Assembly (NCBI GenBank): GCA_965153285.1 | Contig: OZ229121.1 | From: Podarcis tiliguerta | Taxonomy: Eukaryota | Direction: 5' to 3' (one strand) | Length of the DNA: 64,000 nucleotides | Shown: piece after piece, positions 35,901 to 41,900 of the stretch | Numbering within the stretch: the stretch's first letter is position 1 | How the letters are laid out: each line of letters opens with the position of its first letter | Position numbers: made by a program

Positions 35901-38900
35901 GCAATCCTTCCCTTTCAGAGCCCTTCCTCTCTCAAACTAGACGGCCCATTAGCCTGACTCTCTTTATCCAGTGATTTAAATAGGTTGTGCAGCATTGCCA
36001 CAAGGACCTAAACCTTCTCTAGATGTTCTACATCAGTATGCGTGAGTACAGGAGGGTTCTCACTTCAGAAGCTCACCCTACAATCACTGGCAGAGGAAGA
36101 GGAGTGGGGGGGGCACATGGCCCCCGGCAGAGTGATCCCGGTGGGGTGCCATTGCGGCTGCTCCCCACCCACAGGCGGCGTGCCACACCCCCAGGACGCG
36201 TGCCATCTGCTCTCCGTCCCGTCCCCCCATGCCAGAGCAATTCTTGGAGGGCAACAGAAATGGTGACTGGAGATGGAATTAGCACATTTATTCTCATTCC
36301 CCCTTTGCATCTTTTATTTAACTCCGATGCAAAATGCCTGATGTGGGTTATGGACTTTTCTTCTCCCTTCAGTCAGTTTGCTTCTCACCTTAATAGGCAA
36401 GTACGTCTCAGCAACCTTTTGATGTTTTAGGGCCATTTTTTGTCATTAAAAGGGCTTCTGCATGACAATGTCTCTCTGCCATTACAATTAAAAGTTTACT
36501 ATATGAAGTAGCACATACAGTATTTGGGGTTATTACGAAAGCCAAGATGGCTTCAGGATTTCTCAGTGTATTCATATAAAGTGCCTTCCCCCCACCCCCC
36601 AGAATATTTCCTAATTTTGAAGGGTGAAGGACTGGTTTTCTGGGGGGGGGTGTGTGTGTCTGCTTTGTGTGCACCTTATAATTCATGTAACATGAGTATG
36701 GTAAGAAAGACAAATTCTGTTTTTTTCAAGTTTAACTTCTTTGTCTTGCTTTATAAAAATCCACATAAACACAATTTTAATGGGGAAACCAATTGGTGAC
36801 CTAATCAAAACAAAAATACACAGCTTCCATTGTTATTTTTCCCCCACAAGCCTTTTCTTATTTACATAAACGGATAAATTACAGTAATTGTTCAACTTCA
36901 CCATTCAGGAGTAACCAGCACAAGTCGCCTTTGATGACATAAAGTGGACTATTCTTTTGATTTTCTAGGAACACTAAATCAATCCTGCCTTTGATGTCAT
37001 ATTTTGGTTTTAAATGAAGGCTGATCATACGTTCATTTTAACAAACCCGTTGTTTTCCCCATCGACATCAACAAAGCAGGATCTAACCTGAGTCTGAGTC
37101 TCTTATATGTGCATGCTGAAGAAAAGCAATCGGGAACGATGGCTGTGATCTTCCTGCCAATAAAGCAAGTAGCAATGTTTTCACTGCGTTGAAAAAAGTG
37201 CAGGGTTGCACTTAATGGCATTGTGCTGGCTTTCTGTTGTTTTAATACAGGTTTCTATCAAGTCTCATAAAAGCAAACATCAGACACACAGATATTTGAG
37301 CATTCCATTGATAACTGAGCATACAAATATGCAGCCCACACTGTACACTGAAAGTAATAGCCTTTCATTCAAAACAGAAAAAGTTCCATCAAACACTTTT
37401 ATCAAAAGAATGGATGTTCGTACGCTTTGGTTCACCATTGGCTCAGCCAGTAACTGGCTGCTAGGCATGGCTTAGATCATTTGCATTGCATTCGGGACTC
37501 AACCATCTGCAAAATGGGCTGCGGAGAGCATGTCTAGTTTCATTCTCAGAAAGTAAAAAATGGAACCCCCTCACATATTCTCTTTCATACCAGCAGAAAT
37601 CTGAGAACGTCATTCACAACCAGCTTTAGCGCTGATGTCTTTTAATGGCTCCTTTCTCTTCTACTGGAAAGTTAGTGGCCAACTGCCTCCAGATTTCTTA
37701 AAACAAACAAACCCAAATAATAACACAAATCAGTTTTTTAGTGCTCTGACATTTTCGGACATAGCTGTAGAACATTTACCTTATAGTGGAATCACATCAA
37801 CAATAATGTCAAAGATTGAAATCATTTTAGCCCTGGATTAGTAGCCATAGGATTAGTAACTGGTATCCTGCTAGTAGTAGCAGAAGTAGCAGCAATATGT
37901 AGTTGTGGTAATGACTACTAATAGCCTACTGCTGCAGATATTAAAATTTCCCTCTATAAACTGGCATAAATATATGGCACTCAAAGGCCAGCACCTCTAG
38001 GATGGGGTTCATAATGTTCTTATTGTGTCCCTTGACCTTTCATGGGAATTTACTAGCTCCACAAGATTCAGGAAGTGACAACCATAGTCTCGTGGGCATT
38101 TGAACAGCCCCCTCTTATTTACAGGTGTAAGGGTTTTGCTTGAAATGATGGACAGAGTTGGAAAACTCTCTGCCTTTTACCTACAATAACTTGCATGAAG
38201 CTCTTTGCTACTGAGGCTAAAGCATATTAATAGGATCTGCCTGTTAGTTGTGAAATCAAGTTGGGTGGGCAATGGCATTACACCTTGAGTAAAGTTGATA
38301 CCAAGCCTTTCAGTGAAAGATTGCAAATCAATAAATTATATTGTAGCCATTGACAAGTTTTATTGGCTTGGTTTCCAATTTACCATATGGAAGGTGGAAG
38401 CCATATGGAACCATATGGAAGATTTGGAAGCCACTCTCCTTTAATCCTATGTACTTCTGTCCTCCTGGGAGGCCTAGCACATGGCTCTTTTCCACAGAGT
38501 CAGCAGCGCACCAGGGAGGCTAGCACCAGTTCCATGGGGGAAATCCCACATGGAAGGCCATGGTTGCAGACTTTTCAGTATTACACCAATTGTTGGCATC
38601 CGTCTGTCAAGAATGAGCCAGCTCCCATGGAAGGTTTGCAGCCAGCCCCCAGTGAAGTGTTGCAACAAGCTGAAGAAAGCTGCCAGGAACAGAGAGGGTT
38701 AATTGCCAGGCAGGACGAGCATCAGCGAGTGCCAACTCCCCTGCCCCTTGGAATGCCAGCTGATAAGAGAATGGCTGAGGGCAAGCAGGAACTCAGCCAA
38801 TGCTCTACTGGCGCGAACAGAGAAGGAAGCAGTTTGTCAGTACGGGAAGAGATTGTTTCTGAGCCAATCCCTCCTAAGAATAGGCTAAGGGGAGGGCTTT

Positions 38901-41900
38901 TAGACCGGAAACAAGGCAAAAGGCACAAAGTGAGAAGGTTCAATACCTTCTGTAACCAGAAGGGAAGCTCTGAAGGGTCATGATGATTGATGATGGTGGC
39001 GGCATGTTAGAGCCATCCAGAGAACTCTGTTTGTTTTTGCAATAAATCTTCCTTTTTAATTAACCACGCTTGCTGTGTTATCAAGTCGGAAACCGGGACT
39101 CTTGACACAGTCTATCTCAAAAAACAATGGAGTGAAGTCAAACCACAGGAGAATCACAGCGCCTGCTATGGCTGCAGAGACCAGTAACTCGTAACTGCTG
39201 CCTCCCGCAGTGTGTTTATGTATAAAGTTGTTGTTTATGTATTTTATTATGTGAATCATTCCGGTCTCGGTGACGTCTATGCTGGCTTAGTCATATCCAC
39301 TGAATAGAACATGGCACGATCCCCAAGGACATGCTGTACTTGAGGTACCAGGCCTGTTGGCAGACCAACTCTGTGTTACAATGATGTCTGCAAACATGAC
39401 ATGAAGGCTGGCAGTATCACCGTGTGAGAATACCTTGCAGATGACCACAGTGCTGGGAGACACTCAGTCAGGTTTGTATCCACAGCAGTGACCAGAAGAG
39501 GAATGACCGCTGGGAGGAGCGCAGAGACAATGGATTCCATGGTTTACCTGTAAAAGCAAAACCAGATGCCTTCATCTGTCCCAGCTGCAATGTATCGGTC
39601 TCTATGGCCACAGCAGGCGCTCTAACTCTCCAATGGTTTTTCTTCACCCCTGATGGCACAGTGTTCCATTGTCTCCCGAGACAGATAGATGGCAATAACA
39701 ATGTGAATCATCTGACATGGTTTTATTGTACTCACTCTCAATCTGTGTGTGTTTATCTATTGTAAACCACTTCCAGATATTTCAGGTAGCAAGTGATCTA
39801 GAAATGGAAATAATAAATATATAGATTAAAAAGCCAACCCAGATGAAGGTGGTATCTGTAGCCTTTAAAAAAAAATATCTTCCACAAAGCAGGCCAAGTC
39901 CTGGTCAAGACCGATTGCTTCTCTCGCAAGGGAGCCCATACCTTCAGTATAATCGTGTCACAGTGGAGGTGTGCGGGAGCATAAATGTGTGGCTGCCATT
40001 TCCCATGACACATGTGGTCCGAAGGCTGGACTCTAGAGCTTCAAGCAGTTCTGCTTTTCCTATCTCATCTCCTCAAGTGTTCCAATAGCAAAGGAGTAAT
40101 TTTTAATGTGGAAATAATACTGATGTCTTTTTTCAATATTTGAGACTGTATAATCTCTGAAAATAGTTCGGTATTTCTTTGCCTTTTGTTAAATCACTGA
40201 AATACCTTTACGTTGCTTCTTAAATGTGTTTTGTGTCCTTTAACATGTAATTTTCTTTTATGTCAATCAGTTTGGACTTTGCTATTACCTGCCACTTTAA
40301 GTACTTAAAAGAAATGAAGTATTTTTCCCCCTTTAATGTGGCACAAAAATTGAACTTGAACATTTTTGCAATTGTGGAAGATAACATGGTTGGCAGTATC
40401 GGTATAATTTGGAAAGAAACAAAAAGAGGACATCAGACAAGAAAGCATGTATGTGAACGGAGCCCAGGCTAGGGACAGGAAAAAGAAACTCTACTAATCT
40501 TTTCTTAACAAGATTGCATTATTTCATCTAAGATTAACTACCTATTCTGCCCGAATTTTCCTTGCACAGTGGGTTGGACAAGCTAGTTCAGTGTTTCCCA
40601 AAGTGGGCAATACCACCCCCTGGGGGTGCAATGAAACAATCTGGGGGGCAGTAGTAGCCTCAGGTGCAATTGGGGGGCGTTGAATAAAAATAAGGGGGCA
40701 CTGGAAGCATAAAGAAAGAAGAGACTTTTGCAAAACCGTTTGTATATGTTTCATCTGTTGTGCAATGACGCTTACCAATGTACCATAAAGTCGTAGTGAT
40801 TATTTTCCAAATAAACACACAAAAGGCAAGTTATAGGATGTAGGTAGAAAAATAGATACGCAAATTTGTTGCTGCATCTTTCTGTTTGTTTGCTTAAAGA
40901 AGGTAGATTTCCAGGGTGGGGGGCACCCAGTATTCCCCCCCCCCCGGAAAAAAGAGCAGTGGGCCAAATAAATTTGGGAAACTCTGAGCTCGTTGCACTT
41001 ACATTAGCCATTCTGACTAACTTTTCACATTTATTTAAATGGAGTCCAAGTTAGTGACTATGCTAGTAAATGTAAAGGTAAAGGGACCCCTGACCTTTAG
41101 GTCCAGTCGTAACCAACTCTGGGGTTGCAGTGCTCATCCCACTTTATTGGCCGAGGGAGCCGGCGTACAGCTTCCGGGTCATGGCCAGAATGACTAAGCC
41201 GCTTCTGGCGAACCAGAGCAGCGCATGGAAATGCCATTTACCTTCCCACCTATTCATCTACTTGCACTTTGACGTGCTTTCGAACTGCCAGGTTGGCAGG
41301 AGCAGGGACCGAGCAACGGGAGCTCACTCCGTCGTGGGGATTCGAACCGCCGACCTTCTGATCGGCAAGCCCTAGGCTCAGTGATTTAGACCACAGCGCC
41401 ACCTGCGTCCCTGACTATGCTAGTATGAACCTTCAAATATTGCACAGTATTTACTCAAACCTCTGCCACTGTTTACAACCACCATTTGCTCCCTGTCAGT
41501 GTCCCTCCCTTCTTACGCCCATGCCATAGCATATTGTGCAACCTGCCTTCCCTTTTGCTCCGCAACCCCACCCTGACTTCCTGCAAATCCAGGATTGTGA
41601 TGCAGCACTACAAATCCTCCAATCAGGGCTGCATGATGATATTTCCACATAGATGTCAGCCCTATTTTTATTGTCAGCTGATTTTCCTTTCCCAAAGGGT
41701 TAGATCATTGTACCCTCCTCAAATTCTAGGGATGCAAAAAGCAGACGAGTGCTTAAAATGGTTCCTCAGAAACTACAGGGTTTTGTTTTGTTTTGTTTGT
41801 ATAAGCTCTTCCATCATAAATAAGGGCCTCCATATAGCCTGCTGCCTGATCTACAGAACACTCTGGAGAGAGGGAGCAAAGGCACATTTTGGATGAGAAT

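What the first reader, a model, noticed from the sequence alone, without database searches (positions are those of the whole stretch)
38606..38983. Third, unalignable LTR with the same ORF architecture and the same reading phase
Seen: in the solo LTR 38605-39107 the frame starting at LTR nt 2 (T|GTC = Val) is open for ~125 codons. It is acidic and Q/E-rich, then VSEPIPPKNRLR, then basic (DRKQGKRHKVRR). The LTRs starting at 44801 (T|GTG) and 44112 (T|GTC) also have their ORF in phase 2 from the terminal TG. All four LTR ORFs share the layout acidic segment, S/P turn (SxPxP.SP.R-like), basic or charged helix, then a stop upstream of the promoter/polyA region. Inference: a shared, fast-evolving LTR accessory gene across several families. 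Phase agreement among three LTRs alone could be chance (1 in 9).
Basis: partly seen in the sequence, partly recalled or inferred. Interest (0 to 1): 0.68.

Follow-up and report, generated by a model that had tools for sequence, protein, structure and literature searches.

The report
Open frame in a solo LTR
A lone retroviral-type terminal repeat carries an unusually long open reading frame that may be the dead remnant of a viral gene overlapping the repeat, but it shows no relationship to the open frames in the neighbouring repeats.

Summary
Window 38605-39107 (+) is a solo LTR: TG...CA ends, an 8-nt terminal inverted repeat, a 4/5 target-site duplication and AATAAA near the 3' end. The frame from LTR nt 2 is open for 125 codons as reported. 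It also stays open 84 codons into the unrelated upstream flank.

The length is marginally unusual:
- 49/3000 dinucleotide shuffles match it in the sense frames, 337/3000 in six frames.
- 29/5000 shuffles give such a run from the LTR edge.
- 1.3% of TG positions in this window do the same.

The ORF has no start codon at the edge, no codon periodicity, no family, structure or atlas match, and one short relative in 1.8 billion proteins.

Cross-family homology fails. Only LTRs C and D are related; A and B match nothing.

The open frames of all four LTRs are more acidic than composition-matched shuffles. B, C and D also look coding-like.

Best reading, barely ahead of chance: a decayed remnant of a U3-overlapping viral ORF, inert at this locus. 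It is not a shared gene.

The parts
38605..39107 (+). Solo LTR 'A' (503 nt), the subject of the finding
   Evidence: TG...CA ends with an 8-nt perfect terminal inverted repeat. No second copy in the window. No Pfam domain in any open segment of at least 45 codons between 32020 and 46383, so no adjacent internal coding region.
38600..38604 (.). Left copy of the putative 5-nt target-site duplication (CCGTC)
   Evidence: Matches 4 of 5 bases with 39108-39112.
39108..39112 (.). Right copy of the putative target-site duplication (CAGTC)
38606..38980 (+). Open frame inside the LTR: 125 codons in phase 2 from the terminal TG, followed by two consecutive stops at 38981-38986
   Evidence: Length shuffles. 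No Pfam, PDB or atlas match. AlphaFold mean pLDDT 62, pTM 0.26.
38354..38605 (+). Upstream flank in which the same frame stays open (84 codons); not part of the LTR
   Evidence: There is no purine tract next to the LTR edge (read). No Pfam hit for 38354-38980.
38616..38664 (+). In-frame 24-nt tandem duplication (2 copies, 80% match) near the start of the ORF
   Evidence: Tandem Repeats Finder. Both units are also visible in the relative P0001.
39041..39046 (+). AATAAA polyadenylation signal of the LTR
   Evidence: At LTR nt 437; sequence.
44801..45419 (+). Solo LTR 'B' (619 nt) with a perfect 5-nt duplication CTTAG (44796-44800 and 45420-45424); comparison object
   Evidence: Open frame 44802-45203 (134 codons) with ATG at LTR nt 5 and ATAAAA at LTR nt 430. 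The frame also runs 26 codons into the flank.
43491..44112 (-). LTR 'C' (bounds tentative, 4/5 duplication GTTGG/CTTGG); holds a 78-codon open stretch 43866-44099 in phase 2, with one in-frame stop between the LTR edge and that stretch
8158..8560 (+). LTR fragment 'D', related to C; open stretch 8095-8391; 5' end not identifiable
   Evidence: DNA and protein alignments with C. No unique duplication found.

Best explanation
38605-39107 is an old solo LTR of an LTR retroelement or endogenous retrovirus. Its 125-codon open frame covers the first three quarters of the LTR (the presumed U3). It has no start codon at the LTR edge and stops about 60 nt before the polyadenylation signal.

The reading I rank first, only narrowly, is that this is the decaying remnant of coding sequence that overlapped U3 in the parent element. 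There are two forms.
- The tail of a 3' ORF that crossed into the 3' LTR, the layout of foamy-virus bel2/bet (PMC6950176) and, from recall, lentiviral nef.
- An ORF lying wholly in U3, as MMTV sag (PMC3621094).

Such a frame would have been selected only while the element replicated, being read from transcripts that end in the 3' LTR. In a solo LTR the U3 lies upstream of the LTR's own start site. Together with the missing start codon, this makes the frame inert at this locus.

The likeness to the ORFs of LTRs B and C/D is one of layout and composition (an acidic, disordered-looking first part), not of descent.

Shown: the LTR anatomy, the open frame, its statistics and the lack of homology. 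Inferred: former coding and the mode of expression.
For: LENGTH
- Open run from the LTR edge of at least 125 codons in 29/5000 dinucleotide shuffles.
- Longest sense ORF matched in 49/3000 shuffles.
- Only 111/8345 TG positions of this window give such a run, and 29 of those lie in A's and B's own ORFs.

COMPOSITION
- The acidic first 85 codons are matched by 24/2000 shuffles and by 35/2082 shuffled frames that are open. The other two frames are net basic.

A RELATIVE
- P0001 (67 aa, unnamed 500-nt contig) is the same frame of a diverged copy: 31/70 identical, with one 13-residue in-frame gap, BLASTP E = 6e-15.
- It begins with M aligned to residue 2 of A.

CONTEXT
- B is open from its edge for 134 codons (98/5000) with an ATG at LTR nt 5.
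- B has no basic residue in its first 94 codons (D+E 13, net charge -13).
- B has high period-3 composition (only 1/127 controls as high) and one confident arginine-rich helix (pLDDT 93-95).
- C and D share a protein-level block (z = 9.7).
- C-D differences number 11/7/17 of 38 per codon position on frame-blind blocks (p = 0.044). Downstream control blocks show none (p = 0.81).

PRECEDENT
- The U3-overlapping layout is known (PMC3621094 passages; PMC6950176 passages).
Against: - A has no period-3 composition: Cramer V is 0.086, and 97/127 non-coding control stretches are higher.
- There is no ATG at the LTR edge; the first in-frame ATG is 7 codons in.
- The same frame is open for 84 codons in the unrelated flank. 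Events at the 2% level therefore do happen here by chance.
- In six frames, 337/3000 shuffles give an ORF as long.
- Nineteen open stretches of at least 125 codons exist in the window.
- Nothing matches in Pfam at E up to 10, in PDB sequences or in the ESM Atlas. The atlas recognition score is 1066, far below the 2300 reached by 91% of known families.
- AlphaFold gives pLDDT 62 and pTM 0.26.
- There is only 1 hit in 1.84 billion representatives and none in two word-indexed searches.
- P0001's similarity stops at A residue 72 and P0001 ends at 67 aa, so the S/P and basic parts are not seen conserved.
- No full-length element is in the window, so nothing shows an ORF entering the LTR.
- Two published U3 ORFs of this kind were later judged artefacts (PMC3621094; PMC6669660).
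Confidence: 0.45

Rival explanations
1. The open frame is a by-product and was never coding. A purine-rich, T-poor U3, an in-frame 24-nt duplication and chance leave one frame without stops. The reader found it by looking for ORFs in a 64-kb window.
For: - 337/3000 shuffles give an ORF as long in six frames.
- 1.3% of TG positions in the window have a leading open run as long.
- A 210-codon open stretch with no Pfam hit exists elsewhere in the window, at 10648-11277.
- The frame is open for 84 codons in the non-LTR flank.
- There is no period-3 signal in A, no start codon at the edge, no homologue with a name, and low AlphaFold and atlas scores.
- The ORFs of C and D are of ordinary length (814/3000 and 515/3000).
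- Published LTR ORFs have been retracted as artefacts.
Against: - A and B are both open from the very LTR edge (29/5000 and 98/5000).
- The open frame is the acidic one beyond composition in all four LTRs, also among open shuffles.
- B, C and D show period-3 composition in the top 1-7 of 127 controls.
- C-D shows a third-position bias.
- The frame is kept in the diverged relative P0001, with an in-frame gap.
Confidence: 0.4
2. One reading: one homologous, fast-evolving accessory gene carried in the LTRs of several families.
For: - The same phase in A, B and C.
- The same rough layout, an acidic first part, in 4/4.
- Accessory proteins such as foamy Bet are poorly conserved between viruses (PMC6950176).
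Against: - No similarity of A or B to any other LTR ORF by Smith-Waterman with shuffles, phmmer or a profile HMM, or profile-profile comparison.
- The LTR DNAs do not align.
- The basic tail is absent in C and D.
- The S.P.P motif is common, 15/115 controls.
- Phase agreement is 1 in 9.
Confidence: 0.04
3. The frame belongs to the host: an exon or a young gene that uses the flank and the LTR together (209 codons stop to stop), or a host coding fragment captured in U3.
For: - The open frame spans the flank and the LTR without interruption.
- Such a 209-codon run is rare in shuffles of the 754-nt stretch: fraction 0.0002 of 5000 in the sense frames and 0.0024 in six frames.
Against: - No Pfam hit for 38354-38980.
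- No homologue of the LTR part apart from an LTR copy.
- No period-3 signal in the flank part (V = 0.083).
- The relative P0001 starts at the LTR edge, not in a flank.
Confidence: 0.05

Closest known systems
MMTV sag (superantigen gene in the U3 of the 3' LTR)
   Same: An ORF in the sense strand of U3 that ends before the promoter. PMC3621094 states that sag lies entirely within U3 of the 3' LTR (passages). B has an ATG at LTR nt 5.
   Different: - Sag is 320 aa in an LTR of about 1.2 kb. Here there are 125 codons in 503 nt.
- No start codon at the edge in A.
- No named hit in Pfam or PDB.
- No long hydrophobic run in the translation (read).
Foamy-virus bel2/bet, whose ORF runs into U3
   Same: - A 3' accessory ORF that ends inside U3, followed by non-coding U3.
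- Bet is poorly conserved between viruses.
- BFV Bet ends with a basic nuclear-localisation motif (PMC6950176 passages). A and B also end basic.
   Different: - Foamy LTRs are 950-1700 nt (PMC6669660).
- No similarity found.
- Entry of an ORF from upstream cannot be seen in a solo LTR.
'ORF 1' of the tuatara endogenous foamy virus ERV-Spuma-Spu
   Same: A reptile ERV in which a hypothetical accessory ORF (PMC6393741) maps to nt 9114-9498 of a genome whose 3' LTR starts at nt 9110. It therefore starts a few bases inside the LTR and is about 128 codons long, with no similarity to anything (PMC6669660 passages).
   Different: That ORF was re-examined and judged a probable artefact: two frames in another consensus and no internal promoter. 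Its LTR is 935 nt. I made no sequence comparison with it, and its data supplements are closed.
LTR ORFs of bat betaretroviruses (PvERV-betaB, PaERV-betaA)
   Same: A 123-codon ORF inside a 3' LTR with no similarity to Sag (PMC3621094).
   Different: There, one U3-overlapping ORF was shown 'not legitimate' once related copies were compared. That test is the one missing here.
Lentiviral nef (recalled, not tested by any search)
   Same: The 3' part of the ORF overlaps U3 and stops upstream of the core promoter. Lentiviral integration makes a 5-nt duplication, as seen for A and B.
   Different: No named hit came back from Pfam, PDB or the protein searches. The predicted structure is not a folded core.

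Membership tests
Solo LTR of an LTR retroelement / endogenous retrovirus | TG...CA termini with a short terminal inverted repeat | tested here: met
   TGTCAAGA / TCTTGACA, 8 nt.
Solo LTR of an LTR retroelement / endogenous retrovirus | Target-site duplication of 4-6 nt | tested here: met
   CCGTC / CAGTC, 4 of 5. B has a perfect CTTAG.
Solo LTR of an LTR retroelement / endogenous retrovirus | Polyadenylation signal near the 3' end; no adjoining internal genes | tested here: met
   AATAAA at LTR nt 437. None of the 150 open segments between 32020 and 46383 reaches a Pfam cut-off (5 sub-threshold rows).
Solo LTR of an LTR retroelement / endogenous retrovirus | Member of a dispersed repeat family | tested here: inconclusive
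   No second copy in the window. One translated diverged copy in the protein library. No eukaryotic genome collection was available.
U3-resident gene of the MMTV sag type | ORF wholly inside U3 with its own start codon | tested here: not met
   A has no ATG at the edge, and the frame runs on into the flank. B would meet it, with an ATG at LTR nt 5.
U3-resident gene of the MMTV sag type | Sequence or fold relationship to Sag | tested here: not met
   No Pfam family at E up to 10 and no PDB sequence at E up to 10. The model is too poor for a fold search.
3' accessory ORF overlapping U3 (bel2/bet, nef type) | ORF enters the 3' LTR from the internal region | not testable with these tools
   Only solo LTRs are in the window. 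No full-length element could be fetched. The 'longer' search with the C+D profile found none. The all-length search with A found only P0001.
3' accessory ORF overlapping U3 (bel2/bet, nef type) | ORF ends inside U3, upstream of the promoter / poly(A) region | tested here: met
   The stops at 38981-38986 lie about 60 nt before AATAAA. In B the stop is 24 nt before ATAAAA.
   Only C-D are related.
   Of 3000 shuffles, sense frames: A 49, B 190, C 814, D 515.
   A cannot be tested, because the one relative is protein only. For C-D, differences number 11/7/17 of 38 per codon position (p = 0.044). The protein-guided dN/dS of 0.25 is biased by the alignment.

The most novel reading that the evidence does not exclude
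Several unrelated LTR families of this (reptile-like) genome each carry their own U3 gene. It would be read from a start a few bases inside the LTR and make a small protein with an acidic, proline-rich disordered part and a basic, arginine-rich end. This would be a convergent class of U3-encoded accessory proteins, much more widespread than the single textbook case of MMTV sag. It would also rehabilitate the disputed LTR 'ORF 1' of the tuatara foamy-like ERV.
Probability: 0.12. Interest if true: 0.75.

Novelty: new member of a known kind. Interest (0 to 1): 0.35.

Why it matters
If U3-overlapping ORFs are real in several reptile LTR families, solo LTRs would be a large, unread archive of retroviral accessory genes. 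Accessory-gene content could then be read from LTRs alone, and complex retroviruses would be commoner in reptiles than gag-pol-env surveys suggest.

If the frames are by-products, this case is a caution. A 125-codon ORF at the edge of an LTR, even with a plausible 'layout', is within reach of composition and chance. Homology claims based on layout do not survive a profile test.

Tried and rejected
1. Whole-frame translations for Pfam were not accepted because they contain stops. I used stop-free open segments by reference instead.
2. The protein searches found almost nothing.
   - A at near and shorter lengths: nothing.
   - C+D profile against longer proteins: nothing, which the tool itself calls weak evidence.
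   - A against 1.84 billion representatives: one hit, P0001.
3. Other database checks were negative.
   - PDB sequences: none.
   - ESM Atlas for A and B: no usable hit.
   - Rfam over the window: none.
   - RNA fold of the LTR: z = -0.59, so no structured-RNA explanation.
4. A weak phmmer match of A to 1128-1316 (-) (E = 0.022; 9/22 identical) was dropped. The DNA alignment of the two regions places them about 100 nt out of register with it.
5. The internal 69-nt repeat of B gave 2/8/9 differences by codon position. That is not a coding-type pattern.
6. Fold search was not run, because both models have pTM 0.26.
7. The one genome-contig scan was not spent, because that collection holds bacteria and archaea only. 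The phage, plasmid and E. coli collections are equally irrelevant.
9. Paper supplements are closed, so the ERV-Spuma-Spu LTR alignment (Data S2 of PMC6669660) could not be seen.
10. Literature searches for a systematic screen of LTR ORFs or for reptile U3 genes gave only the papers cited. PMC6001957 has no mention of accessory ORFs.

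
Full report
WHAT IS THERE

Window 38605-39107 (+) is a 503-nt unit.
- It begins TGTCAAGA and ends TCTTGACA, an 8-nt perfect terminal inverted repeat with TG...CA ends.
- It is flanked by CCGTC and CAGTC, a 5-nt duplication with one mismatch.
- It carries AATAAA at 39041-39046.
- None of the 150 open segments of at least 45 codons between 32020 and 46383 reaches a Pfam cut-off. Five have sub-threshold rows with E between 0.016 and 0.044.
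- No second copy lies in the window.

It is therefore a solo LTR. The only strong coding feature of the window is an L1-like LINE on the minus strand at 52630-57156. The N blocks were left alone.

THE OBSERVATION

The frame from LTR nt 2 is open for 125 codons (38606-38980) and closes with two consecutive stops.

- The same frame stays open for 84 further codons in the upstream flank, giving 209 codons stop to stop. That flank has no purine tract beside the LTR and no Pfam match, so it is not part of the element.
- There is no start codon at the LTR edge. The first in-frame ATG is 7 codons in.

IS THE LENGTH MORE THAN CHANCE?

Against dinucleotide-preserving shuffles of the LTR:
- A sense-strand ORF this long arises in 49/3000 shuffles, and in any of six frames in 337/3000 (one search gave 0.015 and 0.11 with 5000 shuffles).
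- An open run from the LTR edge in any phase arises in 29/5000.

Empirically, 111 of 8345 TG positions of this window have a leading open run of at least 125 codons, with the LINE and the N blocks excluded. Of those, 29 lie inside the ORFs of A and B themselves. The window holds 19 open stretches of at least 125 codons and 4 of at least 209.

So A is unusual at roughly the 1% level. That is not decisive for something picked out by eye from 64 kb.

THE OTHER LTRs

- B is 44801-45419 (+), with a perfect duplication CTTAG. It is open from its edge for 134 codons (98/5000 shuffles) and has an ATG at LTR nt 5. Its frame also runs 26 codons into the flank.
- C runs from 44112 down to 43491 on the minus strand, with tentative bounds. 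It has its 78-codon open stretch (43866-44099) in phase 2. The frame is interrupted once before that stretch and has no ATG there.
- The fourth ORF is 8095-8391 (+), in fragment D. Its 5' end cannot be fixed. A hairpin-like inverted repeat lies at 8054-8155, where similarity to C stops.
- The ORFs of C and D are of ordinary length (814/3000 and 515/3000), and B is marginal (190/3000).

ARE THE ORFs RELATED?

Only C and D are.
- Smith-Waterman against 500 composition shuffles gives z = 9.7 for C-D (0/500). The other five pairs give z between -1.4 and 1.4.
- phmmer links only C and D (3e-5 and 7e-6). A profile of C+D searched over all 610 open segments of the window finds only C and D, with the next best E-value at 0.45.
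- Profile-profile comparison of A plus its relative against C+D, and of C+D against B, gives 0.1% probability.
- The LTR DNAs do not cross-match.

The 'SxPxP' element is really the conserved C/D block. The pattern S.P.P occurs in 15/115 control stretches. The basic tail is present only in A and B and is not beyond shuffles (381/2000 and 547/2000). C and D end acidic.

SIGNS THAT SOMETHING NON-RANDOM IS PRESENT

- In all four LTRs the open frame is the acidic one. Head net charges are -5, -13, -11 and -7, against 1/115 control stretches at -4 or below.
- Shuffles, and shuffled frames that happen to be open, rarely match this: A 24/2000 and 35/2082, B 0/2000 and 0/7045, C 0/2000 and 0/1747, D 4/2000 and 2/1262.
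- The positional base composition (Cramer V) of B, C and D is matched or exceeded by only 1, 3 and 7 of 127 control stretches. These values are at or above all but the highest of the LINE ORF2 pieces. A, at 0.086, is below the control median.
- Between C and D, differences fall 11/7/17 of 38 per codon position on in-frame blocks chosen by a frame-blind DNA alignment (p = 0.044). Blocks downstream of the ORF show no such pattern (p = 0.81).
- The protein-guided estimate is 13/10/23 of 44 per position, with dN/dS 0.25 against 1.7 and 2.7 in the other frames. It is biased by how the alignment was made.
- B's internal 69-nt repeat does not show a coding pattern (2/8/9).

RELATIVES AND STRUCTURE OF A

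- Two word-indexed searches found nothing.
- The exhaustive search of 1.84 billion representatives found one protein, P0001. It is 67 aa, from an unnamed 500-nt contig, with no name.
- P0001 is the same frame of a diverged copy: 31/70 identical, one 13-residue in-frame gap, E = 6e-15 for the pair. It starts with M opposite residue 2 of A.
- The similarity ends at A residue 72, and P0001 ends soon after. The S/P and basic parts are therefore not seen conserved.
- Because only open frames enter a protein library, this is weak support.
- Pfam at E up to 10, PDB sequences and the ESM Atlas gave nothing.
- AlphaFold without an alignment gives pLDDT 62 and pTM 0.26 for A. It predicts no helix in the basic part.
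- For B it gives a disordered 99 residues followed by one confident arginine-rich helix (pLDDT 93-95).
- The LTR RNA does not fold unusually (z = -0.59), and Rfam finds nothing in the window.

HOW IT MOST LIKELY WORKS

A U3 sequence can be translated only from transcripts that end in the 3' LTR of a full element. In a solo LTR it lies upstream of the LTR's own start site (established retrovirus biology). So at this locus the frame is inert whatever its past.

Two readings remain nearly level.

First (0.45): the frame is the decaying remnant of coding sequence that overlapped U3 in the parent element.
- It could be the tail of a 3' ORF entering the LTR, as bel2/bet in foamy viruses (PMC6950176, passages) and nef in lentiviruses (recalled).
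- Or it could be an ORF wholly in U3, as MMTV sag (PMC3621094, passages).
- This fits the open run from the very edge in A and B, the lack of a start codon in A, the stop shortly before the promoter / poly(A) region, the acid-specific frame, and the stronger coding-like signals in B and C/D.

Second (0.40): composition plus chance plus selection by eye.
- This fits the missing periodicity in A, the openness of the unrelated flank, the six-frame statistics and the empty searches.

COMPARISON WITH WHAT IS KNOWN

The layout is that of known U3-overlapping genes, but no defining sequence feature of Sag, Bet or Nef came back as a named hit.

The nearest precedent in reptiles is the 'ORF 1' of the tuatara ERV-Spuma-Spu (PMC6393741, passages).
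- It maps to nt 9114-9498 of a genome whose 3' LTR begins at nt 9110.
- It was later judged a probable artefact (PMC6669660, passages).

Bat betaretrovirus LTR ORFs include one shown to be illegitimate by comparison of related copies (PMC3621094). That comparison of many copies is exactly the test that could not be run here.

VERDICT

- For A itself the case is weak, and the feature is dead at this locus.
- Interest is moderate to low (0.35).
- If the convergent U3-gene reading were true it would be of real interest (0.75), but I give it about 0.12.

Noticed in passing
window 52630-57156 (-): L1-like LINE with an uninterrupted 1258-aa ORF2 (endonuclease plus reverse transcriptase; Pfam E = 7.5e-17 and 5.4e-43). 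An upstream ORF of about 236 aa has no Pfam match.
   Followed up: partly
window 44801-45419 (+): - LTR B looks young, with a perfect 5-nt duplication.
- Its ORF starts with an ATG at LTR nt 5.
- The first 94 codons have no basic residue.
- It holds an in-frame 69-nt internal repeat.
- It ends in an arginine-rich helix predicted at pLDDT 93-95.
- Of the four LTR ORFs it is the best coding candidate.
   Followed up: partly
window 43866-44099 (-) and 8158-8391 (+): LTRs C and D barely align as DNA but share a protein-level block around a serine/proline motif. Differences in it lean to third codon positions.
   Followed up: partly
window 8054-8155: A hairpin-like inverted repeat (about 16-nt arms) sits where D's similarity to C stops. 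It looks like a small foldback or MITE-like element (read; not tested).
   Followed up: no
window 10648-11277 (+): A 210-codon open stretch with no Pfam family. It is as long as the flank-plus-LTR frame of the finding.
   Followed up: partly
window 1377-1696: Tandem array of a 40-nt unit.
   Followed up: no
window 41074-41392, 58299-58642, 24767-24910: An interspersed repeat of about 300 nt in three copies (84-89% and 67% identity), SINE-like by its look. Rfam gives no match.
   Followed up: no
window 5881-6381 (-) and 27898-28308 (-): Open stretches whose translations resemble, from recall only, the C-terminal parts of RTE/BovB-type and CR1-type LINE proteins. Pfam gives no match. Together with the L1-like LINE, they suggest a non-mammalian, reptile-like host.
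   Followed up: partly
window 4527-4869, 23209-24067, 49679-49874: Blocks of N, left untouched. Several listed 'ORFs' across them are artefacts of the N runs.
   Followed up: no
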